Shown in pieces: positions 1-64,000 of a stretch of DNA of 64,000 nt. This stretch comes from the human T2T-CHM13v2.0 reference genome, Homo sapiens: assembly GCF_009914755.1 (NCBI RefSeq), contig NC_060939.1. One strand, given 5' to 3'. The notes beneath the pieces are model-generated. The model searched no databases. It was given only the letters and a program-made list of their open reading frames with translations, and was not told the origin of the DNA. The position numbers were made by a program, and so were the translations under genes. Positions within the stretch are counted from its first letter, which is position 1. Every line of letters starts with the position of its first letter.

Positions 1-451
1 GACATATCTCTGCACTGATCTCCCAGGTGCTGAAACTTTAGTCTAGGCACTGACTACACGGCATTGTGACATATCACTGCACTGAACACCCAGGCGATAT
101 AACTCTTCTCTAGGATCTGACCACAGGGTGCTTTGTGACATATCCCTGCAATGATCACCCAGGTGATATACCACTTGCCATGGCTCTGCGTACAGGGGCA
201 TTGCAATGTATCTCTGCACTGATCACCTAGGTCTTGTAGCTATTTTCTAGGATCTGCCTACAGTGTTCTTTGTGACGTGTCCCAGCAAGGATTACCCAGG
301 TGATGTACCTCTCATCAAGGCTCTGCCTACAGGCACATTGTGATGTATCTCTGCACTGATCACCTCGGTCATGTAACTTTTTTCTAGGCTCTACCTACGA
401 TGGCATTGTGACATATCTCTGCACTAATCATCCAAGTGATGTAACTCTTGT

Positions 452-2288
452 CTAGGATGTGCCTAACTTAACTTTTTGACATAACCCTGTACTGATCATC
501 CAGGTGATGGAGCTTTTGTCTAGGCTCTGCCTAAGGGGGCATTGTGACATATTTCTGCATTGATCACCCAGGTGGCGAACTCTTCTCTCGGATCTGCCTA
601 TGGGGGCATTGTGAGAAATCTCTGCACTGATCACCCAGGTGATGTAACTGTTGTGTAACCTCTGCCTACAGGGGAATTGTGAGAGATCTCGTCACTCATT
701 ACCCAAGTGATGTAACCATTGCCTAGGCTTTGCGTACAGGGGGCTTTGTGACATACCTTTGCACTGATCACCCAGGTGATGTAACACATCTAAGTTCGGC
801 CTAAAGGAGCTTTGTGACATATCTCTGCACTGATCACTTAGGTGATGTAACACTTTTATAATCACTGCCTACAGGGAATTTTGACAAATCTCTGCACTGA
901 TCACCTAGGTGATGTAACTCTTGTCTACCCTCTGTCCAACGGGGCATTGTGAAATATCTCTGCACTGATCACCCAGGTGATTCAACTCTTGACTAGGAAC
1001 TGCCTACAGAGGTTATTGTGAATTATCTCTGCACTGATAAACTAGGTGGTGTAACCCTTGTCCAAGCTCTGCCTACAGGGGCGTTTCCACATATCCCTGA
1101 ACTGATGACAAAGGTGATGTAACTCTTGCCTAGGCTTTGCCTACAGGGAACATTGGACATATATCTGCACTGATCACCCAGGTGATGCAACTCTTGTCTA
1201 GGCTTTGCCTACAGGGGACATTGTGACATATCTCTTCAATGATCACTCATGTGATGCATCTCTTGCCTAGGCTTTGCCTACAGGGGACATTGTGACATAT
1301 CTCTGCACTGATCTCCCAGGTGCTGTAACATTAGTCTAGGCTCTGGCTACACGGCATTGTCACCTACCTCTGCACTGATCACCCAGGTGATATAACTCTT
1401 TTCTAGGATCTGCCTACAGGGTACTTTGTGACATATCCCTGCACTGATCACCCAGGTGATCTAACTCTGGTCTAAGCTCTGCCTAAAGGGGCATTGTGAC
1501 AGATCTCTGCACTGATCACTCTGGTGATGTAAGTATTGTCTAGGCTCTGCTTCAAGGGGCCTTGTCACATATCTCTGCACTGATCACCCAGGTGATGTAA
1601 CTCTTGTCTAGGCTCTGCTTCCAGGGCATATTGTGACATATCTATGCACTGATCACCTTAGTGATGTAACCCTTTGGTAGGCTCGGCCTACAGGGGAATC
1701 TTGACATATCTCTGCACTGTTAACCGAGGTGATTTAACTCTTGTCTAGGCTGTGCCCACAGGGGGATTGAGACATTCTCTGCACTGATCCCGAGGTGATA
1801 CAACTCTTGCCTTGTCTCTGCCTACTGTGGAAATTGTGACATATCTCTGCACTGATCTCCCAGGTGCTGTAACTTTACTCTAGGCTCTGGCTACACGGCA
1901 TTGTGACACATCACTGCACTGATCACCCAGGCGATATAACTTTTCTCTAGGATCTGAACACAGGGTGCTTTGTGACATATCCCTGCAATGATCACCCAGG
2001 TGATATACCACTTGCCAAGGCTCTGCCTACAGGGGCATTGCAATGTATCTCTGCACTGATCACCTAGGTCTTGTAGCTATTTTCTAGGATCTGCCTACAG
2101 GGTGCTTTGTGACGTGTCCCAGCAAGGATTACCCAGGTGATGTACCTCTCATCAAGGCTCTGCCTACAGGCACATTGTGATGTATCTCTGCACTGATCAC
2201 CTCGGTCATGTAACTTTTTTCTAGGCTCTACCTACGATGGCATTGTGACATATCTCTGCACTAATCATCCAAGTGATGTAACTCTTGT
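452..2288 (+). repeat. 27-mer HOR variant (M14/M15 fusion), 1837 bp
   Basis: At about 1345-1376, GGCTACACGGCATTGT (M14) runs directly into CACCTACCTCTGCACT (M15 tail). The same structure is in the units at 48032 and 51433. Confidence 0.9.
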
Positions 2289-3852
2289 CTAGGATGTGCC
2301 TAACTTAACTTTTTGACATAACCCTGTACTGATCATCCAGGTGATGGAGCTTTTGTCTAGGCTCTGCCTAAGGGGGCATTGTGACATATTTCTGCATTGA
2401 TCACCCAGGTGGCGAACTCTTCTCTCGGATCTGCCTATGGGGGCATTGTGAGAAATCTCTGCACTGATCACCCAGGTGATGTAACTGTTGTGTAACCTCT
2501 GCCTACAGGGGAATTGTGAGAGATCTCGTCACTGATTACCCAAGTGATGTAACCAATGTCTAGGCTTTGCGTACAGGGGGCTTTGTTACATACCTTTGCA
2601 CTGATCACCCAGGTGATGTAACACATCTAAGTTCGGCCTTAAGGAGCTTTGTGACATATCTCTGCACTGATCACTTAGGTGATGTAACACTTTTATAATC
2701 ACTGCCTACAGGGAATTTTGACAAATCTCTGCACTGATCACCTAGGTGATGTAACTCTTGTCTACCCTCTGTCCAACGGGGCATTGTGAAATATCTCTGC
2801 ACTGCTCACCCAGGTGATTCAACTCTTGACTAGGAACTGCCTAGAGAGGTTATTGTGAAATATCTCTGCACTGATAAACTAGGGGGTGTAACACTGGTCC
2901 AAGCTCTGCCTACAGGGTCGTTTCCACATATCCCTGAGCTGATGACAAAGGTGATGTAACTCTTGCCTAGGCTTTTCCTACAGGGAACATTGGACATATA
3001 TCTGCACTGATCACCCAGGTGATCTTACACTGGTCTAATCTCTGCCTAAAGGGGCATTGTGACAGATCTCTGCACTGATCACTCTGGTGACGTAAGTATT
3101 GTCTAGGCTCTGCTTCAAGGGGCCTTGTCACATATCTCTGCACTGATCACCCAGGTGATGTAACTCTTGTCTAGGCTCTGCTTCCAGGGCATATTGTGAC
3201 ATATCTATGCACTGATCACCTTAGTGATGTAACACTTTGGTAGGCTCGGCCTACAGGGGAATCTTGACATATCTCTGCACTGTTAACCGAGGTGATTTAA
3301 CTCTTGTCTAGGCTGTGCCCACAGGGGGATTGAGACATATTTCTGCACTGATCCCGAGGTGATACAACTCTTGCCTGGTCTCTGCCTACTGTGGACATTG
3401 TGACATATCTCTGCACTGATCTCCCAGGTGCTGAAACTTTAGTCTAGGCTCTGACTACACGGCATTGTGACATATCACTGCACTGAACACCCAGGCGATA
3501 TAACTCTTCTCTAGGATCTGACCACAGGGGGCTTTGTGACATATCCCTGCAATGATCACCCAGGTGATATACCACTTGCCAAGGCTCTGCCTACAGGGGC
3601 ATTGCAATGTATCTCTGCACTGATCACCTAGGTCTTGTAGCTATTTTCTAGGATCTGCCTACAGGGTTCTTTGTGACGTGTCCCAGCAAGGATTACCCAG
3701 GTGATGTACCTCTCATCAAGGCTCTGCCTACAGGCACATTGTGATGTATCTCTGCACTGATCACCTAGGTCATGTAACTTTTTTCTAGGCTCTACCTACG
3801 ATGGCATTGTGACATATCTCTGCACTAATCATCCAAGTGATGTAACTCTTGT
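2289..3852 (+). repeat. 23-mer HOR variant (M12-M16 deleted), 1564 bp
   Basis: M11 (...GGAACATTGGACATATATCTGCACT) is followed at about 3009 directly by an M17-type monomer (GATCACCCAGGTGATCTTACACTGGTCTAA). The same structure is in the units at 49869 and 53270. Confidence 0.9.
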
Positions 3853-5757
3853 CTAGGATGTGCCTAAATTAACTTTTTGACATAACCCTGTACTGATCAT
3901 CCAGGTGATGGAGATTTTGTCTAGGCTCTGCCTAAGGGGGCATTGTGACATATTTCTGCATTGATCACCCAGGTGGCGAACTCTTCTCTCGGATCTGCCT
4001 ATGGGGACATTGTGAGAAATCTCTGCACTGATCACCCAGGTGATGTAACTGTTGTGTAACCTCTGCCTACAGGGGAATTGTGAGAGATCTCGTCACTCAT
4101 TACCCAAGTGATGTAACCATTGCCTAGGCTTTGCGTACAGGGGGCTTTGTGACATACCTTTGCACTGATCACCCAGGTGATGTAACACATCTAAGTTCGG
4201 CCTAAAGGAGCTTTGTGACATATCTCTGCACTGATCACTTAGGTGATGTAACACTTTTATAATCACTGCCTACAGGGAATTTTGACAAATCTCTGCACTG
4301 ATCACCTAGGTGATGTAACTCTTGTCTACCCTCTGTCCAATGGGGCATTGTGAAATATCTCTGCACTGATCACCCAGGTGATTCAACTCTTGACTAGGAA
4401 CTGCCTACAGAGGTTATTGTGAAATATCTCTGCACTGATCAACAAGGTGGTGTAAACCTTGTCCAAGTGCTGCCTACAGGGGCGTTTCCATATATCCCTG
4501 AACTGATGACAAAGGTGATGTAACTCTTTCCTAGGCTATGCCTACAGGGTACATTGGACATATATCTGCACTGATCACCCAGGTGATGCAAATCTTGCCT
4601 AGGGTTTGCCTTCAGGGGACATCGTGACATATCTCTTCAATGATCACTCATGTGATGCATCTCTTGCCTATGCTTTGCCTACAGGGGACATTGTGACATA
4701 TCTCACCACTGATCTCCCAGGTGCTGTAACTTTAGTCTAGGCTCTGGCTACACGGCATTGTGACATATCACTGCACTGATCAACCAGGTGATATAACTCT
4801 TGTATAGGCTCTGCCTACAGGGGGATTGTGACCTACCTCTACACTGATCACCCAGGTGATACAACTCTTCTCTAGTATCTGCCTACAAGTACTTTGTGAC
4901 ATATCCCTGCACTGATCACCCAGGTGATCTAACTCTGGTCTAAGCTCTTCCTAAAGGGGCATTGTGACAGATCTCTGCACTGATCACTCTGGAGATGTAA
5001 GGATTGTCTAGGCTCTGCTTCAAGGGGCCTTGTCACATATCTCTGCACTGATCACCCAGGTGATGTAACTCTTGTTTAGGCTCTGCTTCGAGGGCATATT
5101 GTGACATATCTATGCACTGATCACCTTAGTGATGTAACACTTTGGTAGGCTCGGTCTACAGGGGAATCTTGACATATCTCTGCACTGTTAACCGAGGTGA
5201 TTTAACTCTTGTCTAGGCTGTGCCCACAGGGGGATTGAGACATATCTCTGCAGTAATCCCGAGGTGATACAACTCTTGCCTGGTCTCCGCCTACTGTGGA
5301 CATTGTGACATAACTCTGCACTGATCTCCCAGGTGCTGTAACTTTAGTCTAGGCTCTGGCTACACGGCATTGTGACATATCACTGCACTGATCACCCAGG
5401 CGATATAACTCTTCTCTAGGATCTGACCACAGGGTGCTTTTTGACATATCCCTGCAATGATCACCCAGGTGATATACCACTTGCCAAGGCTCTGCCTACA
5501 GGGGCATTACAATGTATCTCTGCACTGATCACCTAGGTCTTGTAGCTATTTTCTAGGATCTGCCTACAGGGTGCTTTGTGACGTGTCCCAGCAAGGATTA
5601 CCCAGGTGATGTACCTCTCATCAAGTCCCTGCCTACAGGCACATTGTGATGTATCTCTGCACTGATCACCTCGGTCATGTAAATTTTTTCTAGGCTCTAC
5701 CAACGACGGCATTCTGACATATCTCTGCACTAATCATCCAAGTGATGTAACTCTTGT

Positions 5758-7595
5758 CTAGGATGTGCCTAAATTAACTTTTTGACATAACCCTGTACTG
5801 ATCATCCAGGTGTTGGAGCTTTTGTCTGGGCTCTGCCTAAGGGGGCATTGTGACATATTTCTGCATTGATCACCCAGGTGGCGAACTCTACTCTCGGATC
5901 TGCCTATGGGGGCATTTTGAGAAATCTCTGCACTGATCACCAAGGTGATGTAACTGTTGTGTAACCTCTGTCTACAGGGGAATTGTGAGAGATCTCGCCA
6001 CTGATTACCCAAGTGATGTAATCGTTGTCTAGGCTTTGCGTACAGGGGGCTTTGTGACATACCTTTGCACTGATCACCCAGGTGATGTAACACATCTAAG
6101 TTCGGCCTAAAGGAGCTTTGTGACATATCTCTGCACTGATCGCTTAGGTGATGTAACACTTTTATAATCACTGGCTACAGGGAATTTTGACAAACCTCTG
6201 CACTGGTCACCTAGGTGATGTAACTCTTGTCTACCCTCTGTCCAACGGGGCATTGTGAAATATCTCTGCACTGATCACCCAGGTGATTCAACTCTAGACT
6301 AGGGACTGCCTACAGAGGTTATTGTGAAATATCTCTGCACTGATAAACTAGGTGGTGTAACCCTTGTCCAAGCTCTGCCTACAGGGGCGTTTCCACATAT
6401 CCCTGAACTGATGACAGAGGTGATGTAACTCTTGCCTAGGCTTTGCCTACAGGGAACATTGGACATATATCTGCACTGATTACCCAGGTGATGCAACTCT
6501 TTCCTAGGCTTTGCCTACAGGGGACATTGTGACATATCTCTTCAATGATCACTCATGTGATGCATCTCTTGCCTAGGCTTTGCCTACAGGGGACATTGTG
6601 ACATATCTCTGCACTGATGTCCCAGGTTCCGTAACTTTAGTCTAAGCTCTGGCTACACGGCATTGTGACATATCACTGCACTGATCAACCAGGTGATATA
6701 ACTCTTGCATAGGCTCTGCCTACAGGGGGATTGTGACCTACCTCTGCACTGATCACCCAGGTGATATAACTCTTCTCTAGGATCTTCCTACAGGGTACTT
6801 TGTGACATATCCCTGCACTGGTCACCCAGGTGATTTATCTCTGGTCTAAGCTCTGCCTAAAGGGGCCTTGTCACATATCTCTGCACTGATCACCCAGGTG
6901 ATGTAACTCTTGTCTAGGCTCTGCTTCCTGGGCATATTGTGACATATCTATGCACTGATCACCTTAGTGATGTAACACTTTGGTAGGCTAGGCCTACAGG
7001 GGAATCTTGACATATCTCTGCACTGTTAACCGAGGTGATTTAACTCTTGTCTAGGCTGCGCCCACAGGGGGATTGAGACATATCTCTGCACTGATCCCGA
7101 GGTGATACAACTCTTGCCTGGTCTCTGCCTACTGTGGACATTGTGACATATCTCTGCACTGATCTCCCAGGTGCTGTAACTTTAGTCTAGGCTCTGGCTA
7201 CACGGCATTGTGACATATCACTGCACTGATCACCCAGGCGATATAACTCTTCTCTAGGATCTGACCACAGGGTGCTTTGTGACATATCCCTGCAATGATC
7301 ACCCAGGTGATATACCACTTGCCAAGGCTCTGCCTACAGGGGCATTGCAATGTATCTCTGCACTGATCACCTAGGTCTTGTAGCTATTTTCTAGGATCTG
7401 CCTACAGGGTGCTTTGTGAGGTGTCCCAGCAAGGATTACCCAGGTGATGTACCTCTCATCAAGGCTCTGCCTACAGGCACATTGTGATGTATCTCTGCAC
7501 TGATCACCTAGGACATGTAACTTTTTTCTAGGCTCTACCTACGATGGCATTGTGACATATCTCTGCACTAATCATCCAAGTGATGTAACTCTTGT
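5758..7595 (+). repeat. 27-mer HOR variant (M17/M18 fusion), 1838 bp
   Basis: At about 6850-6887, CTCTGCCTAAAGGGG (M17) continues as CCTTGTCACATATC (M18 tail), followed by M19. The same structure is in the unit at 56739. Confidence 0.9.
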
Positions 7596-9437
7596 CTAGG
7601 ATGTGCCTAAATTAACTTTTTGACATAACCCTGTACTGATCATCCAGGTGATGGAGCTTTTGTCTAGGCTCTGCCTAAGGGGGCATTGTGACATATTTCT
7701 GCATTGATCCCCCAGGTGTCGAACTCTTCTCTCATATCTGCCTATGGGGGCATTGTGAGAAATCTCTGTACTGATCACCCAGGTGATGTAACTGTTGTGT
7801 AACCTCTGCCTACAGGGGAATTGTGAGAGATCTCGCAACTGATTACCCAAGTGATGTAACCGTTGTCTAGGCTTTGCGTACAGGGGACTTTGTGACATAC
7901 CTTTGCACTGATCACCCAGGTGATGTAACACATCTAAGTTCGGCCTAAAGGAGCTTTGTGACATATCTCTGCACTGATCACTTAGGTGATGTAACACTTT
8001 TATAATCACTGCCTACAGGGAATTTTGACAAATCTCTGCACTGATCACCTAGGTGATGTAACTCTTGTCTACCCTCTGTCCAACGGGGCATTGTGAAATA
8101 TCTCTGCACTGATCACCCAGGTTATTCATCTTTTCACTAGGAACTGCCTACAGAGGTTATTGTGAAATATCTCTGCACTGATAAACTAGGTGGTGTAACC
8201 CTTCTCCAAGCTCTGCCTACAGGGACGTTTCCACATATCCCTGAACTGATGACAGAGGTGATGTAACTCTTGCCTAGGCTTTGCCTACAGGGAACATTGT
8301 GACATATCTCTTCAATTATCACTCATGTGATGCATCTCTTGCCTATGCTTTGCCTACAGGGGACATTGTGACATATCTCTTCACTGATCTCCAAGGTGCT
8401 GTAACTTTATTCTAGGCTCTGGCTACACGGCATTGTGACATATCACTGCACTGATCAACCAGGTGATATAACCCTTGTATAGGCTCTGCCTACAGGAGGA
8501 TTGTGACCTACCTCTGCACTGATCACCCAGGTGATATAACTCTTCTCTAGGATCTGCCTACAGGGTACTTTGTGACATATCCCTGCACTGATCACCCAGG
8601 TGATCTAACTCTGGTCTAAGCTCTGCCTAAAGGGGCATTGTGACAGATCTCTGCACTGATCACTCTGGTGATGTAAGTATTGTCTAGGCTCTGCTTCAAG
8701 GGGCCTTGTCACATATCTCTGCACTGATCACCCAGGTGTTTTAACTCTTGTCTAAGGCTCTGCTTCCAGAGCATATTGTGACATATCTATGCCCTGATCA
8801 CCTTAGTGATGTAACGCTTTGGTAGGCTCGGCCTACAGGGGAATCTTGACATATCTCTGCACTGTTAACCGAGGTGACTTAACTCTTGTCTAGGCTGTGC
8901 CCACAGGGGTATTGAGACATATCTCTGCACTGATCCCGAGGTGATACAACTCTTGCCTGGTCTCTGCCTACTGTGGACATTGTGACATATCTCTGCAATG
9001 ATCTCCCAGGTGCTGTAACTTTAGTCTAGGCTCTGAATTCACGGGCATTGTGACTTATCACTGCACTGATCACCCAGGCGATATAACTCTTCTCTAGGAT
9101 CTGACCACAGGGTGCTTTGTGACATATCCCTGCAATGATCACCCAGGTGATATACCACTTGCCAAGGCTCTGCCTACAGGGGCATTGCAATGTATCTCTG
9201 CACTGATCACCTAGGTCTTTGTAGCCTATTTTCTAGGATCTGCCTACAGGGTTCTTTGTGACGTGTCCCAGCAAGGATTACCCAGGTGACGTACCTCTCA
9301 TCAAGACTCTGCCTACAGGCACATTGTGATGTATCTCTGCACTGATCACCTAGGTCATGTAACTTTTTTCTAGGCTCTACCTACGATGGCATTGTGACAT
9401 ATCTCTGCACTAATCATCCAAGTGATGTAACTCTTGT
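7596..9437 (+). repeat. 27-mer HOR variant (M11/M12 fusion), 1842 bp here and 1838 bp in the macro-repeat copy at 58577
   Basis: At about 8248-8316, GATGACAGAGG...CAGGGAACATTG (M11) continues as TGACATATCTCTTCAAT (M12 tail). Confidence 0.9.
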
Positions 9438-12400
9438 CTAGGATGTGCCTAAATTAACTTTTTGACATAACCCTGTACTGATCATCCAGGTGATGGAGCT
9501 TTTGTCTAGGCTCTGCCTAAGGGGGCATTGTGACATATTTCTGCATTGATCACCCAGGTGGCGAACTCTTCTCTCGGATCTGCCTATGGGGGCATTGTGA
9601 GAAATATCTGCACTGATCACCCAGGTGATGTAACAGTTGTGTAACCTCTGCCTACAGGGGAATTGTGAGAGATCTCGTCACTGATTACCCAAGTGATGTA
9701 ACCGTTGTCTAGGCTTTGTGTACAAGGGGCTTTGTGACATACATTTGCACTGATCACCCAGGTGATGTAATTCATCTAAGTTCGGCCTAAAGGAGCTTTG
9801 TGACATATCTCTGCACTGATCATTTAGGTGATGTAACACTTTTATAATCACTGCCTACAAGGAATTTTGACAAATCTCTGCACTGATCACCTAGGTGATG
9901 TAACTCTTGTCTACCCTCTGTCCAACGGGGCATTGTGAAATATCTCTGCACTGATCACCCAGGTGATTCAACTCTTGACTAGGAACTGCCTACAGAGGTT
10001 ATTGTGAAATATCTCTGCACTGATAAACTAGGTGGTGTAACCCTTGTCCAAGCTCTGCCTTCAGGGGCGTTTCCACATATCCCTGAACTGATGACAAAAG
10101 TCATGTAACTCTTGCCTAGGCTTTGCCTACAGGGAACATTGGACATATATCTGCACTGATCACCCAGGTGTTGCAACTCTTGCCTTGGCTTTGCCTACAG
10201 GGGACATCGTGACATATCTCTTCAATGATCTCTCATGTGATGCATCTCTTGCCTAGGCTTTGCCTACAGGGGACATTGTGACATATCTCTGCACTGATCT
10301 CCCAGGTGCTGTAACTTTAGTCTAAGCTCTGGCTACAAGGCATTGTGACATATCACTGCACTGATCAACCAGGTGATATAACTCTTGCATAGGCTCTGCC
10401 TACAGGGGGATTGTGACCTACCTCTGCACTGATCACCCAGGTGATATAACTCTTCTCTAGGATCTTCCTACAGGGTACTTTGTGACATATCCCTGCACTG
10501 ATCACCCAGGTGATTTATCTCTGGTCTAAGCTCTGCCTAAAGGGGCCTTGTCACATATCTCTGCACTAATCACTCTGGTGATGTAAGTATTTTCTAGGCT
10601 CTGCTTCAAGGGGCCTTGTCACATACCTCTGCACTGATCACCCAGGTGATGTAACTCTTGTCTAGGCTCTGCTTCCAGGGCATATTGTGACATATCTATG
10701 CACTGATCACCTTAGTGATGTAACACTTTGGTAGGCTCGGCCTACAGGGGAATCTTGACATATCTCTGCACTGTTAACAGAGGTGACTTAACTCTTGTCT
10801 AGGCTGTGCCCACAGGGGGATTGAGACATATCTCTGCACTGATCCCGAGGTGATACAACTCTTGTCTGGTCTCTGCCTTCTGTGGACATTGTGACATATC
10901 TCTGCAATGATCTCCCAGGTGCTGTAACTTTAGTCTAGGCTCTGGCTACACGGCATTGTGACATATCACTGCAATGATCACCCAGGCGATATAACTCTTC
11001 TCTAGGATCTGACCACAGGGTGCTTTGTGATATATCCCTGCAATGATAACCCAGGTGATATACCACTTGCCAAGGCTCTGCCTACAGGGGCATTGCAATG
11101 TATCTCTGCACTGATCACCTAGGTCTTGTAGCTATTTTCTAGGATCTGCCTACAGGGTTCTTTGTGACGTGTCCCAGCAAGGATTACCCAGGTGACGTAC
11201 CTCTCATCAAGACTCTGCCTACAGGCACATTGTGATGTATCTCTGCACTGATCACCCAGGTCATGTAACTTTTTCTAGGCTCTACCTATGATGGCATTGT
11301 GACATATCTCTGCACTAATCATCCAAGTGATGTAACCCTTGTCTAGGATGTGCCTAAATTAACTTTTTGACATAACCCTGTACTGATCATCCAGGTGATG
11401 GAGCTTTTGTCTAGGCTCTGCCTAAGGGGGCATTGTGACATATTTCTGCATTGATCACCCAGGTGGCAAACTCTTCTCTCGGATCTGCCTATGGGGGCAT
11501 TGTGAGAAATCTCTGCACTGATAACCCAGGTGATGTAACTGTTGTGTAACCTCTGCCTACAGGGGAATTGTGAGAGATCTCGTCACTGATTACCCAAGTG
11601 ATGTAACCGATGTCTAGGCATTGCATACAGGGGGCTTTGTGACATACATTTGCACTGATCACCCAGGTGATGTAACACATCTAAGTTCGGCCTAAAGGAG
11701 CTTTGTGACATATCTCTGCACTGATCACTTAGGTGATGTAACACTTTTATAATCACTGCCTACAGGGAATTTTGACAAATCTCTGCACTGATCACCTAGG
11801 TGATGTCACTCTTGTCTACCCTCTGTGCAACGGGGCCTTGTGAAATATCTCTGCACTGATCACCCAGGTGATTCAACTCTTGACTAGGAACTGCCTACAG
11901 AGTTTATTGTGAAATATCTCTGCACTGATAAACTAGGTGGTGTAAACCTTGTCCAAGCTCTGCCTACAGGGGCGTTTCCACATATCCCTGAACTGATGAC
12001 AAAGGTGATGTAACTCTTGCCTAGGCTTTGCCTACAGGGAACATTTGACATATATCTGCACTGATCACCCAGGTGATGCAACTCTTGCCTAGGCTTTGCC
12101 TACAGGGGACATTGTGACATATCTCTTCAATGATCACTCATGTGATGCATCTCTTGCCTAGGCTTTGCCTACAGGTGACATTGTGACATATCTCTGCACT
12201 GATCTCCCAGGTGCTGTAACTTTAGTCTAGGCTCTGGCTACACGGCATTGTGACATATCACTGCACTGATCAACCAGGTGATATAACTCTTGTATAGGCC
12301 TCTGCCTACAGGGGGATTGTGACCTACCACTGCACTGATCACCCAGGTGATATAACTCTTCTCTAGGATCTGCCTACAGGGTACTTTGTGACATATCCCT

Positions 12401-13247
12401 GCACTGATCACCCAGGTGATCTAACTCTGGTCTAAGCTCTGCCTAAAGGGGCATTGTGACAGATCTCTGCACTGATCACTCTGGTGATGTAAGTATTGTC
12501 TAGGCTCTGCTTCAAGGGGCCTTGTCATATACCTCTGCACTGATCACCCAGGTGATGTAACTCTTGTCTAGGCTCTGCTTCCAGGGCATATTGTGACATA
12601 TCTAGGCACTGATCACCTTAGTGATGTAACACTTTGGTAGGCTCGGCCTACAGGGGAATCTTGACATATCTCTGCACTGTTAACCGAGGTGATTTAACTT
12701 TTGTCTAGGCTGTGCCCACAGGGGGATTGAGACATATCTCTGCACTGATCCCGTGGTGATAAAACTCTTGCCTGGTCTCTGCCTACTGTGGACATTGAGA
12801 CATATCTCTGCACTGATCTCCCAGGTGCTGTACTTTAGTCTAGGCTGTGGCTACACGGCATTGTGACATATCACTGCACTGATCACCCAGGCGATACAGC
12901 TCTTCTCTAGGATCTGACCACAGGGTGCTTTGTGACATCTCCCTACAATGATCACCCAGGTGATATACCACTTGCCAAGGCTCTGCCTACAGGGCATTGC
13001 AATGTATCTCTGCACTGATCACCTAGGTCTTGTAGCTATTTTCTAGGATCTGCCTACAGGGTGCTTTGTGACGTGTCCCAGCAAGGATTACCCAGGTGAT
13101 GTACCTCTCATCAAGGCTCTGCCTACAGGCACATTGTGATGTATCTCTGCACTGATCACCTAGGTCATGTAACTTTTTCCTAGGCTCTACCTACGATGGC
13201 ATTGTGACATATCTCTGCACTAATCATCCAAGTGATGTAACTCTTGT

Positions 13248-54000: not shown

Positions 54001-54833
54001 TGATCTTACACTGGTCTAATCTCTGCCTAAAGGGGCATTGTGACAGATCTCTGCACTGATCACTCTGGTGACGTAAGTATTGTCTAGGCTCTGCTTCAAG
54101 GGGCCTTGTCACATATCTCTGCACTGATCACCCAGGTGATGTAACTCTTGTCTAGGCTCTGCTTCCAGGGCATATTGTGACATATCTATGCACTGATCAC
54201 CTTAGTGATGTAACACTTTGGTAGGCTCGGCCTACAGGGGAATCTTGACATATCTCTGCACTGTTAACCGAGGTGATTTAACTCTTGTCTAGGCTGTGCC
54301 CACAGGGGGATTGAGACATATTTCTGCACTGATCCCGAGGTGATACAACTCTTGCCTGGTCTCTGCCTACTGTGGACATTGTGACATATCTCTGCACTGA
54401 TCTCCCAGGTGCTGAAACTTTAGTCTAGGCTCTGACTACACGGCATTGTGACATATCACTGCACTGAACACCCAGGCGATATAACTCTTCTCTAGGATCT
54501 GACCACAGGGGGCTTTGTGACATATCCCTGCAATGATCACCCAGGTGATATACCACTTGCCAAGGCTCTGCCTACAGGGGCATTGCAATGTATCTCTGCA
54601 CTGATCACCTAGGTCTTGTAGCTATTTTCTAGGATCTGCCTACAGGGTTCTTTGTGACGTGTCCCAGCAAGGATTACCCAGGTGATGTACCTCTCATCAA
54701 GGCTCTGCCTACAGGCACATTGTGATGTATCTCTGCACTGATCACCTAGGTCATGTAACTTTTTTCTAGGCTCTACCTACGATGGCATTGTGACATATCT
54801 CTGCACTAATCATCCAAGTGATGTAACTCTTGT
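48032..54833 (+). repeat. Two tandem copies of a 3401-bp (27-mer + 23-mer) HOR pair
   Basis: Anchor spacings are 1837, 1564, 1837 and 1564, and all four anchors carry the private variant GCCTAACTTAAC instead of GCCTAAATTAAC. Confidence 0.9.
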
Positions 54834-57800
54834 CTAGGATGTGCCTAAATTAACTTTTTGACATAACCCTGTACTGATCATCCAGGTGATGGAGATTTTG
54901 TCTAGGCTCTGCCTAAGGGGGCATTGTGACATATTTCTGCATTGATCACCCAGGTGGCGAACTCTTCTCTCGGATCTGCCTATGGGGACATTGTGAGAAA
55001 TCTCTGCACTGATCACCCAGGTGATGTAACTGTTGTGTAACCTCTGCCTACAGGGGAATTGTGAGAGATCTCGTCACTCATTACCCAAGTGATGTAACCA
55101 TTGCCTAGGCTTTGCGTACAGGGGGCTTTGTGACATACCTTTGCACTGATCACCCAGGTGATGTAACACATCTAAGTTCGGCCTAAAGGAGCTTTGTGAC
55201 ATATCTCTGCACTGATCACTTAGGTGATGTAACACTTTTATAATCACTGCCTACAGGGAATTTTGACAAATCTCTGCACTGATCACCTAGGTGATGTAAC
55301 TCTTGTCTACCCTCTGTCCAATGGGGCATTGTGAAATATCTCTGCACTGATCACCCAGGTGATTCAACTCTTGACTAGGAACTGCCTACAGAGGTTATTG
55401 TGAAATATCTCTGCACTGATCAACAAGGTGGTGTAAACCTTGTCCAAGTGCTGCCTACAGGGGCGTTTCCATATATCCCTGAACTGATGACAAAGGTGAT
55501 GTAACTCTTTCCTAGGCTATGCCTACAGGGTACATTGGACATATATCTGCACTGATCACCCAGGTGATGCAAATCTTGCCTAGGGTTTGCCTTCAGGGGA
55601 CATCGTGACATATCTCTTCAATGATCACTCATGTGATGCATCTCTTGCCTATGCTTTGCCTACAGGGGACATTGTGACATATCTCACCACTGATCTCCCA
55701 GGTGCTGTAACTTTAGTCTAGGCTCTGGCTACACGGCATTGTGACATATCACTGCACTGATCAACCAGGTGATATAACTCTTGTATAGGCTCTGCCTACA
55801 GGGGGATTGTGACCTACCTCTACACTGATCACCCAGGTGATACAACTCTTCTCTAGTATCTGCCTACAAGTACTTTGTGACATATCCCTGCACTGATCAC
55901 CCAGGTGATCTAACTCTGGTCTAAGCTCTTCCTAAAGGGGCATTGTGACAGATCTCTGCACTGATCACTCTGGAGATGTAAGGATTGTCTAGGCTCTGCT
56001 TCAAGGGGCCTTGTCACATATCTCTGCACTGATCACCCAGGTGATGTAACTCTTGTTTAGGCTCTGCTTCGAGGGCATATTGTGACATATCTATGCACTG
56101 ATCACCTTAGTGATGTAACACTTTGGTAGGCTCGGTCTACAGGGGAATCTTGACATATCTCTGCACTGTTAACCGAGGTGATTTAACTCTTGTCTAGGCT
56201 GTGCCCACAGGGGGATTGAGACATATCTCTGCAGTAATCCCGAGGTGATACAACTCTTGCCTGGTCTCCGCCTACTGTGGACATTGTGACATAACTCTGC
56301 ACTGATCTCCCAGGTGCTGTAACTTTAGTCTAGGCTCTGGCTACACGGCATTGTGACATATCACTGCACTGATCACCCAGGCGATATAACTCTTCTCTAG
56401 GATCTGACCACAGGGTGCTTTTTGACATATCCCTGCAATGATCACCCAGGTGATATACCACTTGCCAAGGCTCTGCCTACAGGGGCATTACAATGTATCT
56501 CTGCACTGATCACCTAGGTCTTGTAGCTATTTTCTAGGATCTGCCTACAGGGTGCTTTGTGACGTGTCCCAGCAAGGATTACCCAGGTGATGTACCTCTC
56601 ATCAAGTCCCTGCCTACAGGCACATTGTGATGTATCTCTGCACTGATCACCTCGGTCATGTAAATTTTTTCTAGGCTCTACCAACGACGGCATTCTGACA
56701 TATCTCTGCACTAATCATCCAAGTGATGTAACTCTTGTCTAGGATGTGCCTAAATTAACTTTTTGACATAACCCTGTACTGATCATCCAGGTGTTGGAGC
56801 TTTTGTCTGGGCTCTGCCTAAGGGGGCATTGTGACATATTTCTGCATTGATCACCCAGGTGGCGAACTCTACTCTCGGATCTGCCTATGGGGGCATTTTG
56901 AGAAATCTCTGCACTGATCACCAAGGTGATGTAACTGTTGTGTAACCTCTGTCTACAGGGGAATTGTGAGAGATCTCGCCACTGATTACCCAAGTGATGT
57001 AATCGTTGTCTAGGCTTTGCGTACAGGGGGCTTTGTGACATACCTTTGCACTGATCACCCAGGTGATGTAACACATCTAAGTTCGGCCTAAAGGAGCTTT
57101 GTGACATATCTCTGCACTGATCGCTTAGGTGATGTAACACTTTTATAATCACTGGCTACAGGGAATTTTGACAAACCTCTGCACTGGTCACCTAGGTGAT
57201 GTAACTCTTGTCTACCCTCTGTCCAACGGGGCATTGTGAAATATCTCTGCACTGATCACCCAGGTGATTCAACTCTAGACTAGGGACTGCCTACAGAGGT
57301 TATTGTGAAATATCTCTGCACTGATAAACTAGGTGGTGTAACCCTTGTCCAAGCTCTGCCTACAGGGGCGTTTCCACATATCCCTGAACTGATGACAGAG
57401 GTGATGTAACTCTTGCCTAGGCTTTGCCTACAGGGAACATTGGACATATATCTGCACTGATTACCCAGGTGATGCAACTCTTTCCTAGGCTTTGCCTACA
57501 GGGGACATTGTGACATATCTCTTCAATGATCACTCATGTGATGCATCTCTTGCCTAGGCTTTGCCTACAGGGGACATTGTGACATATCTCTGCACTGATG
57601 TCCCAGGTTCCGTAACTTTAGTCTAAGCTCTGGCTACACGGCATTGTGACATATCACTGCACTGATCAACCAGGTGATATAACTCTTGCATAGGCTCTGC
57701 CTACAGGGGGATTGTGACCTACCTCTGCACTGATCACCCAGGTGATATAACTCTTCTCTAGGATCTTCCTACAGGGTACTTTGTGACATATCCCTGCACT

Positions 57801-60800
57801 GGTCACCCAGGTGATTTATCTCTGGTCTAAGCTCTGCCTAAAGGGGCCTTGTCACATATCTCTGCACTGATCACCCAGGTGATGTAACTCTTGTCTAGGC
57901 TCTGCTTCCTGGGCATATTGTGACATATCTATGCACTGATCACCTTAGTGATGTAACACTTTGGTAGGCTAGGCCTACAGGGGAATCTTGACATATCTCT
58001 GCACTGTTAACCGAGGTGATTTAACTCTTGTCTAGGCTGCGCCCACAGGGGGATTGAGACATATCTCTGCACTGATCCCGAGGTGATACAACTCTTGCCT
58101 GGTCTCTGCCTACTGTGGACATTGTGACATATCTCTGCACTGATCTCCCAGGTGCTGTAACTTTAGTCTAGGCTCTGGCTACACGGCATTGTGACATATC
58201 ACTGCACTGATCACCCAGGCGATATAACTCTTCTCTAGGATCTGACCACAGGGTGCTTTGTGACATATCCCTGCAATGATCACCCAGGTGATATACCACT
58301 TGCCAAGGCTCTGCCTACAGGGGCATTGCAATGTATCTCTGCACTGATCACCTAGGTCTTGTAGCTATTTTCTAGGATCTGCCTACAGGGTGCTTTGTGA
58401 GGTGTCCCAGCAAGGATTACCCAGGTGATGTACCTCTCATCAAGGCTCTGCCTACAGGCACATTGTGATGTATCTCTGCACTGATCACCTAGGACATGTA
58501 ACTTTTTTCTAGGCTCTACCTACGATGGCATTGTGACATATCTCTGCACTAATCATCCAAGTGATGTAACTCTTGTCTAGGATGTGCCTAAATTAACTTT
58601 TTGACATAACCCTGTACTGATCATCCAGGTGATGGAGCTTTTGTCTAGGCTCTGCCTAAGGGGGCATTGTGACATATTTCTGCATTGATCCCCCAGGTGT
58701 CGAACTCTTCTCTCATATCTGCCTATGGGGGCATTGTGAGAAATCTCTGTACTGATCACCCAGGTGATGTAACTGTTGTGTAACCTCTGCCTACAGGGGA
58801 ATTGTGAGAGATCTCGCAACTGATTACCCAAGTGATGTAACCGTTGTCTAGGCTTTGCGTACAGGGGACTTTGTGACATACCTTTGCACTGATCACCCAG
58901 GTGATGTAACACATCTAAGTTCGGCCTAAAGGAGCTTTGTGACATATCTCTGCACTGATCACTTAGGTGATGTAACACTTTTATAATCACTGCCTACAGG
59001 GAATTTTGACAAATCTCTGCACTGATCACCTAGGTGATGTAACTCTTGTCTACCCTCTGTCCAACGGGGCATTGTGAAATATCTCTGCACTGATCACCCA
59101 GGTTATTCATCTTTTCACTAGGAACTGCCTACAGAGGTTATTGTGAAATATCTCTGCACTGATAAACTAGGTGGTGTAACCCTTCTCCAAGCTCTGCCTA
59201 CAGGGACGTTTCCACATATCCCTGAACTGATGACAGAGGTGATGTAACTCTTGCCTAGGCTTTGCCTACAGGGAACATTGTGACATATCTCTTCAATTAT
59301 CACTCATGTGATGCATCTCTTGCCTATGCTTTGCCTACAGGGGACATTGTGACATATCTCTTCACTGATCTCCAAGGTGCTGTAACTTTATTCTAGGCTC
59401 TGGCTACACGGCATTGTGACATATCACTGCACTGATCAACCAGGTGATATAACCCTTGTATAGGCTCTGCCTACAGGAGGATTGTGACCTACCTCTGCAC
59501 TGATCACCCAGGTGATATAACTCTTCTCTAGGATCTGCCTACAGGGTACTTTGTGACATATCCCTGCACTGATCACCCAGGTGATCTAACTCTGGTCTAA
59601 GCTCTGCCTAAAGGGGCATTGTGACAGATCTCTGCACTGATCACTCTGGTGATGTAAGTATTGTCTAGGCTCTGCTTCAAGGGGCCTTGTCACATATCTC
59701 TGCACTGATCACCCAGGTGTTTTAACTCTTGTCTAGGCTCTGCTTCCAGAGCATATTGTGACATATCTATGCCCTGATCACCTTAGTGATGTAACGCTTT
59801 GGTAGGCTCGGCCTACAGGGGAATCTTGACATATCTCTGCACTGTTAACCGAGGTGACTTAACTCTTGTCTAGGCTGTGCCCACAGGGGTATTGAGACAT
59901 ATCTCTGCACTGATCCCGAGGTGATACAACTCTTGCCTGGTCTCTGCCTACTGTGGACATTGTGACATATCTCTGCAATGATCTCCCAGGTGCTGTAACT
60001 TTAGTCTAGGCTCTGAATTCACGGCATTGTGACTTATCACTGCACTGATCACCCAGGCGATATAACTCTTCTCTAGGATCTGACCACAGGGTGCTTTGTG
60101 ACATATCCCTGCAATGATCACCCAGGTGATATACCACTTGCCAAGGCTCTGCCTACAGGGGCATTGCAATGTATCTCTGCACTGATCACCTAGGTCTTGT
60201 AGCTATTTTCTAGGATCTGCCTACAGGGTTCTTTGTGACGTGTCCCAGCAAGGATTACCCAGGTGACGTACCTCTCATCAAGACTCTGCCTACAGGCACA
60301 TTGTGATGTATCTCTGCACTGATCACCTAGGTCATGTAACTTTTTTCTAGGCTCTACCTACGATGGCATTGTGACATATCTCTGCACTAATCATCCAAGT
60401 GATGTAACTCTTGTCTAGGATGTGCCTAAATTAACTTTTTGACATAACCCTGTACTGATCATCCAGGTGATGGAGCTTTTGTCTAGGCTCTGCCTAAGGG
60501 GGCATTGTGACATATTTCTGCATTGATCACCCAGGTGGCGAACTCTTCTCTCGGATCTGCCTATGGGGGCATTGTGAGAAATATCTGCACTGATCACCCA
60601 GGTGATGTAACAGTTGTGTAACCTCTGCCTACAGGGGAATTGTGAGAGATCTCGTCACTGATTACCCAAGTGATGTAACCGTTGTCTAGGCTTTGTGTAC
60701 AAGGGGCTTTGTGACATACATTTGCACTGATCACCCAGGTGATGTAATTCATCTAAGTTCGGCCTAAAGGAGCTTTGTGACATATCTCTGCACTGATCAT

Positions 60801-63800
60801 TTAGGTGATGTAACACTTTTATAATCACTGCCTACAAGGAATTTTGACAAATCTCTGCACTGATCACCTAGGTGATGTAACTCTTGTCTACCCTCTGTCC
60901 AACGGGGCATTGTGAAATATCTCTGCACTGATCACCCAGGTGATTCAACTCTTGACTAGGAACTGCCTACAGAGGTTATTGTGAAATATCTCTGCACTGA
61001 TAAACTAGGTGGTGTAACCCTTGTCCAAGCTCTGCCTTCAGGGGCGTTTCCACATATCCCTGAACTGATGACAAAAGTCATGTAACTCTTGCCTAGGCTT
61101 TGCCTACAGGGAACATTGGACATATATCTGCACTGATCACCCAGGTGTTGCAACTCTTGCCTTGGCTTTGCCTACAGGGGACATCGTGACATATCTCTTC
61201 AATGATCTCTCATGTGATGCATCTCTTGCCTAGGCTTTGCCTACAGGGGACATTGTGACATATCTCTGCACTGATCTCCCAGGTGCTGTAACTTTAGTCT
61301 AAGCTCTGGCTACAAGGCATTGTGACATATCACTGCACTGATCAACCAGGTGATATAACTCTTGCATAGGCTCTGCCTACAGGGGGATTGTGACCTACCT
61401 CTGCACTGATCACCCAGGTGATATAACTCTTCTCTAGGATCTTCCTACAGGGTACTTTGTGACATATCCCTGCACTGATCACCCAGGTGATTTATCTCTG
61501 GTCTAAGCTCTGCCTAAAGGGGCCTTGTCACATATCTCTGCACTAATCACTCTGGTGATGTAAGTATTTTCTAGGCTCTGCTTCAAGGGGCCTTGTCACA
61601 TACCTCTGCACTGATCACCCAGGTGATGTAACTCTTGTCTAGGCTCTGCTTCCAGGGCATATTGTGACATATCTATGCACTGATCACCTTAGTGATGTAA
61701 CACTTTGGTAGGCTCGGCCTACAGGGGAATCTTGACATATCTCTGCACTGTTAACAGAGGTGACTTAACTCTTGTCTAGGCTGTGCCCACAGGGGGATTG
61801 AGACATATCTCTGCACTGATCCCGAGGTGATACAACTCTTGTCTGGTCTCTGCCTTCTGTGGACATTGTGACATATCTCTGCAATGATCTCCCAGGTGCT
61901 GTAACTTTAGTCTAGGCTCTGGCTACACGGCATTGTGACATATCACTGCAATGATCACCCAGGCGATATAACTCTTCTCTAGGATCTGACCACAGGGTGC
62001 TTTGTGATATATCCCTGCAATGATAACCCAGGTGATATACCACTTGCCAAGGCTCTGCCTACAGGGGCATTGCAATGTATCTCTGCACTGATCACCTAGG
62101 TCTTGTAGCTATTTTCTAGGATCTGCCTACAGGGTTCTTTGTGACGTGTCCCAGCAAGGATTACCCAGGTGACGTACCTCTCATCAAGACTCTGCCTACA
62201 GGCACATTGTGATGTATCTCTGCACTGATCACCCAGGTCATGTAACTTTTTCTAGGCTCTACCTATGATGGCATTGTGACATATCTCTGCACTAATCATC
62301 CAAGTGATGTAACCCTTGTCTAGGATGTGCCTAAATTAACTTTTTGACATAACCCTGTACTGATCATCCAGGTGATGGAGCTTTTGTCTAGGCTCTGCCT
62401 AAGGGGGCATTGTGACATATTTCTGCATTGATCACCCAGGTGGCAAACTCTTCTCTCGGATCTGCCTATGGGGGCATTGTGAGAAATCTCTGCACTGATA
62501 ACCCAGGTGATGTAACTGTTGTGTAACCTCTGCCTACAGGGGAATTGTGAGAGATCTCGTCACTGATTACCCAAGTGATGTAACCGATGTCTAGGCATTG
62601 CATACAGGGGGCTTTGTGACATACATTTGCACTGATCACCCAGGTGATGTAACACATCTAAGTTCGGCCTAAAGGAGCTTTGTGACATATCTCTGCACTG
62701 ATCACTTAGGTGATGTAACACTTTTATAATCACTGCCTACAGGGAATTTTGACAAATCTCTGCACTGATCACCTAGGTGATGTCACTCTTGTCTACCCTC
62801 TGTGCAACGGGGCCTTGTGAAATATCTCTGCACTGATCACCCAGGTGATTCAACTCTTGACTAGGAACTGCCTACAGAGTTTATTGTGAAATATCTCTGC
62901 ACTGATAAACTAGGTGGTGTAAACCTTGTCCAAGCTCTGCCTACAGGGGCGTTTCCACATATCCCTGAACTGATGACAAAGGTGATGTAACTCTTGCCTA
63001 GGCTTTGCCTACAGGGAACATTTGACATATATCTGCACTGATCACCCAGGTGATGCAACTCTTGCCTAGGCTTTGCCTACAGGGGACATTGTGACATATC
63101 TCTTCAATGATCACTCATGTGATGCATCTCTTGCCTAGGCTTTGCCTACAGGTGACATTGTGACATATCTCTGCACTGATCTCCCAGGTGCTGTAACTTT
63201 AGTCTAGGCTCTGGCTACACGGCATTGTGACATATCACTGCACTGATCAACCAGGTGATATAACTCTTGTATAGGCTCTGCCTACAGGGGGATTGTGACC
63301 TACCACTGCACTGATCACCCAGGTGATATAACTCTTCTCTAGGATCTGCCTACAGGGTACTTTGTGACATATCCCTGCACTGATCACCCAGGTGATCTAA
63401 CTCTGGTCTAAGCTCTGCCTAAAGGGGCATTGTGACAGATCTCTGCACTGATCACTCTGGTGATGTAAGTATTGTCTAGGCTCTGCTTCAAGGGGCCTTG
63501 TCATATACCTCTGCACTGATCACCCAGGTGATGTAACTCTTGTCTAGGCTCTGCTTCCAGGGCATATTGTGACATATCTAGGCACTGATCACCTTAGTGA
63601 TGTAACACTTTGGTAGGCTCGGCCTACAGGGGAATCTTGACATATCTCTGCACTGTTAACCGAGGTGATTTAACTTTTGTCTAGGCTGTGCCCACAGGGG
63701 GATTGAGACATATCTCTGCACTGATCCCGTGGTGATAAAACTCTTGCCTGGTCTCTGCCTACTGTGGACATTGAGACATATCTCTGCACTGATCTCCCAG

Positions 63801-64000
63801 GTGCTGTAACTTTAGTCTAGGCTGTGGCTACACGGCATTGTGACATATCACTGCACTGATCACCCAGGCGATACAGCTCTTCTCTAGGATCTGACCACAG
63901 GGTGCTTTGTGACATCTCCCTACAATGATCACCCAGGTGATATACCACTTGCCAAGGCTCTGCCTACAGGGCATTGCAATGTATCTCTGCACTGATCACC
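50982..64000 (+). repeat. Second, partial copy of the 51-kb macro-repeat, near-identical to 1-13023
   Basis: The ORF track repeats with identical rare translations at constant offsets (4439/55420, 5533/56514, 8137/59118, 11884/62861). Private motifs are shared, e.g. CATGGCTCTGCGTAC, ATCTCACCACTG, GGTTATTCATCTTTTCAC and CTCTGAATTCAC. Confidence 0.93.

What the first reader, a model, noticed from the sequence alone, without database searches (positions are those of the whole stretch)
1..64000. Near-perfect 51-kb macro-repeat superimposed on the beta-satellite HOR array
Seen: 1-13023 recurs at 50982-64000 with every private substitution and structural variant I checked preserved, whereas most neighbouring HORs differ at many sites. 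The period holds 26 HORs of 27,23,28,27,27,28,28,28,28,28,29,27,28,27,37,28,28,28,37,28,28,37,37,28,27,23 monomers (sum 749). Known: beta satellite has kb-scale HORs, and large nested duplications occur in human satellite arrays. Inference: this is a very recent amplification of a unit some 27 times larger than the HOR. Only 13 kb of the second copy is visible, so a tandem 51-kb unit, a single dispersed duplication of at least 13 kb, and an assembly false duplication all remain possible. I cannot say whether it has been described before.
Basis: partly seen in the sequence, partly recalled or inferred. Interest (0 to 1): 0.8.

Follow-up and report, generated by a model that had tools for sequence, protein, structure and literature searches.

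The report
Recent 51-kb triplication in beta satellite
A 51-kb block of 26 beta-satellite higher-order repeats on the short arm of human chromosome 15 stands three times in a row, almost letter-perfect, and its edges carry the marks of unequal crossing-over; this is a clean, very young example of a known way in which satellite arrays grow.

Summary
Window 1-13023 and 50982-64000 differ by no substitution, only by six one-base run-length changes.

With 280 kb of flanking sequence from the same assembly, the repeat proves to be a tandem array of exactly three units:
- U1: chr15:420,506-471,474
- U2: chr15:471,475-522,449
- U3: chr15:522,450-573,424

Both outer edges lie at the same phase. The two inner junctions are identical hybrid HORs, with the switch confined to 41 bp (window 26450-26490). 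That is the signature of unequal homologous exchange between two HORs 26 apart.

Only three substitutions separate the units. U2 matches U3 at the first site and U1 at the other two, as expected for the middle unit made by a second unequal crossover.

A rough age is tens of thousands of years. It rests on an assumed mutation rate.

Seventeen run-length differences all lie in one 35-kb stretch (window 8755-43694). They look like consensus noise in the assembly.

Reads could not be checked, so the third copy rests on the assembly.

Macro-repeats of this kind are known in alpha satellite. This is a new member of a known kind, of modest interest.

The parts
1..26449 (+). 3' part of macro-unit U2. 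The whole unit is window -24525..26449, i.e. chr15:471,475-522,449, 50,975 bp.
   Evidence: Pairwise walks of U1/U2/U3. U1 against U2: 1 substitution and 7 small indel events.
26450..64000 (+). 5' part of macro-unit U3. The whole unit is window 26450..77424, i.e. chr15:522,450-573,424, 50,975 bp.
   Evidence: U2 against U3: 2 substitutions and 16 small indel events. The right end was located.
26010..28527 (+). Junction HOR J2, a 37-monomer HOR variant. Its 5' part is Y-like and its 3' part is X-like. It is identical to J1 at the U1/U2 junction.
   Evidence: HOR table and four-way alignment of X, J1, J2 and Y.
26450..26490 (+). 41-bp interval that holds the exchange point of the founding unequal crossover.
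   Evidence: Up to 26449, J1 = J2 = Y and differs from X. From 26491 on, J1 = J2 = X and differs from Y.
8755..43694 (+). One contiguous 34,940-bp stretch with 17 one- or two-base run-length differences (14 longer, 3 shorter). All are private to this stretch against both sister units. It straddles the U2/U3 junction.
   Evidence: Binomial p = 1.3e-11 for all 17 falling in 34.9 of 152.9 kb.
14268..14268 (+). Substitution site s2, unit position about 38.8 kb. T in U1 and U2 (here), C in U3 (window 65245).
19271..19271 (+). Substitution site s3, unit position about 43.8 kb. C in U1 and U2 (here), A in U3 (window 70248).
35349..35349 (+). Substitution site s1, unit position about 8.9 kb. C in U3 (here) and in U2 (window -15629), G in U1.
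26010..47522 (+). Older nested level inside the unit: a repeat of four HORs (8.2-8.9 kb). HORs 14/18/22, 15/19/23, 16/20 and 17/21 differ by 0.4-1.4%.
   Evidence: matrix. Long exact matches at offsets 8235-8238 and 8851.
47523..54324 (+). A 27-mer + 23-mer HOR pair standing twice in tandem (HORs 24-25 and 26-27), 1.2-1.8% apart. This is an older two-HOR duplication inside the unit.

Best explanation
This is a real, very young tandem triplication of a 50.97-kb block (26 HORs, 749 monomers of 68 bp) inside the distal chr15p beta-satellite array. I propose two successive unequal homologous exchanges.

Step 1. Two HORs 26 HORs apart paired out of register: X at chr15:420.5 kb and Y at 573.4 kb in today's coordinates. 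They exchanged within a 41-bp tract. This duplicated the block and left a hybrid Y/X junction HOR. This step is read directly from the sequence.

Step 2. The two-copy array mispaired by one unit and crossed over between unit positions 8.9 and 38.8 kb. The result is a middle unit that is U3-like at its 5' end and U1-like at its 3' end. This step is inferred from three sites.

The structure has no function of its own. It is a record of how the array grows. The 17 run-length differences in window 8755-43694 are most likely consensus noise of the assembly, not mutations. This too is inferred.
For: - Three full units of 50,969, 50,975 and 50,975 bp stand head to tail. Across all three there are only 3 substitution sites.
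- Both outer edges fall at the same phase. In the four-way alignment, J1 = J2 = Y and differs from X at 53 columns up to window 26449. J1 = J2 = X and differs from Y at 22 columns from 26491 on. The four other variable columns (three at the alignment's start and the J2-private run-length site at 25757) are left out of these two counts. No column breaks this pattern. Left of U1, about 1 kb is in HOR register at about 2 differences per monomer. Further left the register is lost.
- Allele pattern at the three sites: U1 is G,T,C; U2 is C,T,C; U3 is C,C,A. U2 has no private substitution. The C at s1 is seen only in U2 and U3, whereas the G context occurs 11 times in the 344 kb. The C at s2 is a singleton.
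- On 167 HORs in 344 kb, divergence under 0.3% in runs of 3 or more HORs occurs on five lags only. These are lag 26 (51 pairs), lag 52 (25), lag 11 (10), lag 13 (3) and lag 2 (3). Adjacent HORs average 2.37%.
- Unit-specific 32-mers lie at 446,671/497,640/548,621, at 442,388/493,357/544,338 and at 420,863/471,832/522,807. None has a fourth copy one period away.
- All 17 run-length differences lie in one stretch that crosses a unit boundary. The assembly graph was built after homopolymer compression and masking of simple repeats (Nurk et al. 2022, PMC9186530, passages read).
Against: - No reads could be inspected. Sites s1 and s2 lie 29.9 kb apart. I recall, from no call, that HiFi reads are about 20 kb long, which would be too short to span them. 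If so, the middle unit (C at s1 followed by T at s2) rests on long nanopore reads or on depth used by the assemblers.
- A spurious extra passage through a graph loop would give the same C,T,C unit.
- The noisy stretch covers just the second passage over s2, s3, the junction and s1. That may mean this part was built differently.
- The two-step order rests on three sites only. If the C at s1 was already in the founding block, a one-step origin fits as well.
- A 41-bp identical tract is short for classical homologous exchange. My recollection of the usual minimum of a few hundred bp comes from no call.
- The 54-mer across the junction is not unique: 186 matches genome-wide. It cannot serve as proof of a novel joint.
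Confidence: 0.8

Rival explanations
1. The duplication is real but the copy number is wrong. The genome has two units (G,T,C and C,C,A), or more than three. The middle unit would then come from one passage too many, or too few, through a loop of the assembly graph.
For: U2 has no private substitution and is an exact mosaic of its neighbours. The two junction passages are identical. The second passage coincides with the 35-kb stretch of 17 run-length differences. Nurk et al. describe nodes that are traversed twice and resolved by depth and nanopore reads (passages).
Against: [quoted passage not shown] Its Table S5 lists chr15:0-23,279,251 among the TandemTools validations. A mosaic middle unit is also exactly what a real second crossover gives.
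Confidence: 0.1
2. The triplication arose in one step by a replication-based route: break-induced replication with repeated template switching at the same homologous spot, or re-replication. The three substitutions arose afterwards.
For: J1 and J2 are identical, with the same 41-bp interval. A short identical tract suits template switching.
Against: An identical second junction also follows from a crossover anywhere inside two units. The derived C at s1 is shared by U2 and U3. That needs either a reversion in U1 or a founding block that already carried C.
Confidence: 0.07
3. This is an old triplication kept uniform by gene conversion, so the near-identity says nothing about age.
For: Concerted evolution is usual in satellite arrays; this is general knowledge, not from a call. 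The A at s3 also occurs in 9 other places in the 344 kb, so it could have been copied from a paralogue.
Against: Identity is uniform over the whole 51 kb, with sharp edges at one phase. Directly outside them, HORs differ by about 3%. Conversion tracts would have to cover every unit completely and stop exactly at the edges.
Confidence: 0.03

Closest known systems
Macro-repeats and large recent tandem duplications in alpha-satellite HOR arrays of CHM13 (chr12, chr6, chrX). Source: Altemose et al., preprint 10.1101/2021.07.12.452052, passages read.
   Same: Blocks of many HORs are duplicated in tandem inside one array. They are seen as long off-diagonal lines in self dot-plots, are nested in older levels, and are taken as recent and polymorphic.
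   Different: Here the satellite is beta satellite on a distal acrocentric short arm, not a centromere. The unit is 51 kb in three copies. Both outer edges and the hybrid junction are resolved to 41 bp. In the passages I read, that paper reports only new HORs for beta satellite, not macro-repeats.
Unequal crossing-over model of tandem-array evolution (Smith 1976). This is recalled; I did not read it here.
   Same: Out-of-register pairing of repeats gives duplications whose joint is a hybrid repeat. A second round gives a mosaic middle copy.
   Different: None in principle. This locus is an instance where both steps can be read from the sequence.
Multi-megabase tandem HSat3 duplication at 9q12 in CHM13. 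Source: Nurk et al. 2022, PMC9186530, figure legend read.
   Same: A recent tandem duplication inside a satellite array. It forms a loop in the assembly graph that must be traversed more than once.
   Different: The scale is megabases against 51 kb, the satellite family differs, and that one matches a visible karyotype variant.
rDNA arrays on the same short arms: 45-kb units. Source: Nurk et al. 2022, passage read.
   Same: Near-identical tandem units of similar size on acrocentric short arms, kept alike by unequal exchange.
   Different: rDNA units are genes in arrays of many copies. This unit is itself a stretch of satellite, has three copies, and no gene is annotated in the window (the hub's note).
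Distal acrocentric beta-satellite subfamily of Greig and Willard 1992. I saw only the title, in a reference list. That its HOR is about 2 kb is recalled.
   Same: 68-bp monomers in a higher-order repeat of about 1.9 kb, distal on an acrocentric short arm.
   Different: That work could not see structure above the HOR.

Membership tests
Beta satellite (68-bp Sau3A family) | Tandem monomers of about 68 bp | tested here: met
   940 monomers in the window: 510 of 68 bp, 253 of 69, 132 of 67, 39 of 66, 4 of 70 and 2 of 71. The array runs without a break from chr15:416,001 to 760,000 in one orientation.
Beta satellite (68-bp Sau3A family) | A Sau3A site (GATC) in most monomers. That this defines the family is recalled, not from a call. 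| tested here: met
   708 of 940 monomers hold GATC.
Beta satellite (68-bp Sau3A family) | Match to a curated beta-satellite consensus | not testable with these tools
   No repeat library is on hand. The name rests on monomer length, the GATC site, the place on chr15p, and Nurk et al.'s description of BSat arrays distal to the rDNA.
Beta satellite (68-bp Sau3A family) | Higher-order repeat organisation | tested here: met
   The canonical HOR has 28 monomers (about 1,906 bp). Its monomers differ by a median of 25% from each other, whereas HOR copies differ by 2-3%.
Multi-HOR tandem duplication by unequal homologous exchange (satellite macro-repeat) | The period is a whole number of HORs and structural variants recur in the same order | tested here: met
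   26 HORs (749 monomers). The same series of lengths appears in all three units.
Multi-HOR tandem duplication by unequal homologous exchange (satellite macro-repeat) | At least two complete units head to tail, with both outer edges at the same phase | tested here: met
   Three units. The edges map to window 26449 and 26491 in J2 coordinates.
Multi-HOR tandem duplication by unequal homologous exchange (satellite macro-repeat) | A hybrid repeat at the inner junctions | tested here: met
   J1 = J2. They are Y-like on the left (53 columns) and X-like on the right (22 columns), with no exception.
Multi-HOR tandem duplication by unequal homologous exchange (satellite macro-repeat) | Copy number supported by reads that span the units, or by depth | not testable with these tools
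   No reads are available. Only the published general validation of BSat arrays bears on this.

The most novel reading that the evidence does not exclude
One or both young events are so recent that they are private to the CHM13 lineage, or even arose mitotically. The events are the third 51-kb unit, which has no private substitution, and the neighbouring 21-kb duplication, which has 19,067 identical bases. If so, distal acrocentric beta-satellite arrays would gain or lose tens of kilobases on a time-scale visible in pedigrees and between close haplotypes, with exchange points that can be mapped to tens of bases.
Probability: 0.15. Interest if true: 0.55.

Novelty: new member of a known kind. 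Interest (0 to 1): 0.3.

Why it matters
- It gives a base-level record of how a satellite array on an acrocentric short arm grows. The block size (26 HORs), the exchange point (41 bp) and a preserved mosaic middle unit are all visible. Such detail is rarely legible in alpha satellite.
- It predicts a copy-number polymorphism of one, two or three units that can be looked for in other complete human genomes. With that, rates of unequal exchange next to the rDNA could be measured.
- It flags a 35-kb stretch of the reference (chr15:504,755-539,694) whose run lengths probably need checking.
- It is a reminder that near-identical macro-units longer than the accurate reads rest on depth and nanopore evidence.
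- None of this changes how satellite evolution is understood.

Tried and rejected
- **Whole-genome DNA search.** A search with 4 kb of the window was not scored because there were too many candidates. I used exact 32-mers instead.
- **A-B-A reading.** After the second copy seemed to leave the first after 14 HORs. I took it for a single dispersed 26.7-kb duplication. Upstream sequence overturned this.
- **Marker at window 35318.** It gave only two places on chr15, which I first read as the left end of the array. The third place is lost because the marker's last base is the U1 substitution s1.
- **54-mer across the junction.** I hoped it would be unique to the hybrid joint, but it has 186 matches genome-wide. 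Among the listed chr15 places, only 471,468 and 522,443 lie in the zone (100 of the 186 places are listed). So it proves nothing about novelty of the joint.
- **Supplementary tables of Nurk et al.** I searched them for chr15, patch and v0.7. They show only that chr15:0-23,279,251 was in the TandemTools validation. The supplementary text (docx) could not be read and may hold the list of patches and known issues.
- **Polishing preprint.** The McCartney et al. preprint does not mention chr15 (passages).
- **Literature searches.** Searches found no paper describing this chr15 beta-satellite macro-repeat. Most subscription papers are not in that library.
Full report
**1. The observation**

- The window is pure 68-bp tandem repeat. 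I find 940 monomers of 66-71 bp, mode 68, of which 350 are distinct. 708 of the 940 hold GATC.
- Window 1-13023 and 50982-64000 align without a single substitution. The first 8,754 bases are identical.
- The rest differs at six places by one base of run length: A/AA, GG/GGG, TT/TTT, C/CC, C/CC and AA/A.
- After homopolymer compression the two copies are the same 10,318 letters.
- The longest other exact repeat in the window is 1,560 bases.
- The lag is 749 monomers at 192 of 192 anchor pairs.

**2. HOR structure**

- I used one clean HOR (window 14645-16550) as reference. Every monomer then falls into one of 28 classes. Classes B and U are identical in the reference.
- The 37-mers carry a nine-monomer repeat (VWXYZabAB). 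The 23-mers lack S to W.
- Adjacent HORs differ by 2.63% on average, range 0.68-4.41. HORs 26 apart differ by 0.04%.
- Inside the period there is an older level. HORs 14-23 form a repeat of four HORs (8.2-8.9 kb) whose members differ by 0.4-1.4%. The 27+23 pair stands twice, 1.2-1.8% apart.

**3. Beyond the window**

- The assembly is held as G000, and the window is C15:496001-560000.
- The satellite runs through all 344 kb in one orientation.
- To the right, the 51-kb diagonal goes on to window 77,465. It then meets clustered substitutions and is lost at 77,696.
- To the left, it runs through 75.5 kb and is lost at window -75,495, which is chr15:420,505.
- The zone is therefore 152,960 bp and holds three units:
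  - U1: chr15:420,506-471,474 (50,969 bp)
  - U2: chr15:471,475-522,449 (50,975 bp)
  - U3: chr15:522,450-573,424 (50,975 bp)
- Exact 32-mers specific for four phases of the unit were searched in the whole genome. Three of them lie three times on chr15 at 50.97-50.98-kb spacing, with no fourth copy one period away. The fourth marker lies twice, because its last base is a substitution in U1.
- The same 32-mers also occur in beta-satellite arrays of chr13, 14, 21 and 22, but there at HOR spacing, not in the order of this unit.
- On 167 HORs, divergence under 0.3% in runs of three or more HORs is found on five lags only: 26 (51 pairs), 52 (25), 11 (10), 13 (3) and 2 (3).

**4. The edges and the joint**

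I aligned four 1.9-kb stretches: the left edge (X), the two inner junctions (J1, J2) and the right edge (Y).

- J1 and J2 are the same, apart from one run-length site and the alignment's edge.
- At 53 columns up to window 26449, J1 = J2 = Y and X differs.
- At 22 columns from 26491 on, J1 = J2 = X and Y differs. No column goes the other way.
- The switch therefore lies in window 26450-26490, and both outer edges of the zone lie at that same phase.
- Left of U1, about 1 kb stays in HOR register with about two differences per monomer. Further left the register is lost.

This is what unequal homologous exchange between two HORs 26 apart must leave: X, block, Y/X hybrid, block, Y.

The 54-mer across the interval is not unique in the genome, with 186 matches. 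So the joint is defined by its flanks, not by a new word.

**5. The differences between units**

There are three substitution sites in all.

| Site | Unit position | U1 | U2 | U3 |
|---|---|---|---|---|
| s1 | 8.9 kb | G | C | C |
| s2 | 38.8 kb | T | T | C |
| s3 | 43.8 kb | C | C | A |

- The C at s1 is seen nowhere else in the 344 kb, while the G context occurs 11 times. The C at s2 is a singleton.
- U2 has no private substitution. It is U3-like before a point between 8.9 and 38.8 kb and U1-like after it.
- A second unequal crossover between the two units of a duplicated array gives just such a middle unit. This step is inferred from three sites and cannot be more than likely.
- I assume 1.25e-8 substitutions per base per generation and 29 years per generation; neither figure was measured here.
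  - Three differences between U1 and U3 then give about 2,350 generations, or about 68,000 years.
  - This pairwise figure is my own arithmetic, not printed by any search. With the Poisson limits of 0.62-8.77 used, it spans roughly 14,000-200,000 years.
  - computed the star-tree version: 1,569 generations, range 324-4,586.
- Gene conversion would make these ages too low.

**6. The run-length differences**

- All 16 small indel events (17 single changes; 14 make the run longer) are private to one contiguous stretch of the chromosome, window 8755-43694. The stretch straddles the U2/U3 junction, with its centre at 26,224.
- Outside it, the remaining 118 kb of the zone has none. The binomial probability is 1.3e-11.
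- Within the stretch there is no private substitution.
- I recall, from general knowledge, that real mutations are mostly substitutions. These changes are also exactly the kind that the assembly method ignores when it builds its graph: runs are compressed and simple repeats masked (Nurk et al.).
- I therefore read them as consensus noise.
- The stretch covers the second passage over s2 = T, s3 = C, the junction and s1 = C. That passage is letter for letter the same path as the first one, from U1 to U2.
- This suggests, but does not show, that the second passage was built or polished in another way.
- Polishing was deliberately cautious in large satellite arrays (McCartney et al. preprint, passages).

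**7. What stays open**

- No reads were available. I recall, from no call, that HiFi reads are about 20 kb long. If so, they cannot join s1 to s2 (29.9 kb apart), and the third unit then rests on depth and nanopore evidence that I cannot see.
- Nurk et al. state that all BSat arrays were checked by secondary-variant ratios. They list chr15:0-23,279,251 among the TandemTools validations.
- Their supplementary text could not be read.
- I put 0.8 on a real triplication by unequal exchange. I put 0.1 on a wrong copy number, 0.07 on a one-step replication-based origin and 0.03 on an old structure kept uniform by conversion.

**8. Comparison with what is known**

- Large macro-repeats and recent nested or tandem duplications of many HORs are described for alpha-satellite arrays of CHM13 on chr12, chr6 and chrX. 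For beta satellite, the same paper reports new HORs found with NTRprism (Altemose et al. preprint, passages).
- A multi-megabase tandem HSat3 duplication needing two passages of a graph loop is described for 9q12 (Nurk et al.).
- Four literature searches and passages of two further papers gave no description of this chr15 beta-satellite triplication.
- It is thus a new member of a known kind. It is notable mainly for how cleanly both steps can be read. Interest is modest.

Noticed in passing
L003:8522 to L007:8554 (chr15:588,522-628,554; window 92,522-132,554): A second young macro-duplication: 11 HORs (20,966 bp) in two tandem copies. 19,067 bases are exactly identical, and the diagonal is lost about 1 kb further on each side.
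   Followed up: partly
window 8755-43694: 17 run-length differences are private to one 35-kb stretch that crosses a unit boundary. This is probably consensus noise in the reference at chr15:504,755-539,694.
   Followed up: partly
window 26010-28527, 34247-36765, 40577-45616: The 37-monomer HOR variants carry a nine-monomer repeat. It is explained by exchange between monomer classes B and U, which are identical in the reference HOR. Downstream there are larger variants of 57-73 monomers (loci L001-L020).
   Followed up: partly
chr21:575-611 kb, chr22:0.5-2.2 Mb, chr14:778-810 kb, chr13:9.64 Mb (places listed): 32- to 54-base words that are rare in this chr15 unit recur at HOR spacing in beta-satellite arrays of other acrocentric chromosomes. 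So HOR variants are shared between chromosomes, while the 26-HOR order is not.
   Followed up: no
window 1-64000: The hub's note says that NCBI's soft mask covers 0 in 100 of the window, although every base of it is 68-bp satellite.
   Followed up: no
L001-L020 (window 84,000-165,000): A long run of uniform 28-monomer HORs follows the triplicated zone. It has a two-HOR (3,812-bp) sub-period, unlike the variant-rich zone in the window.
   Followed up: no
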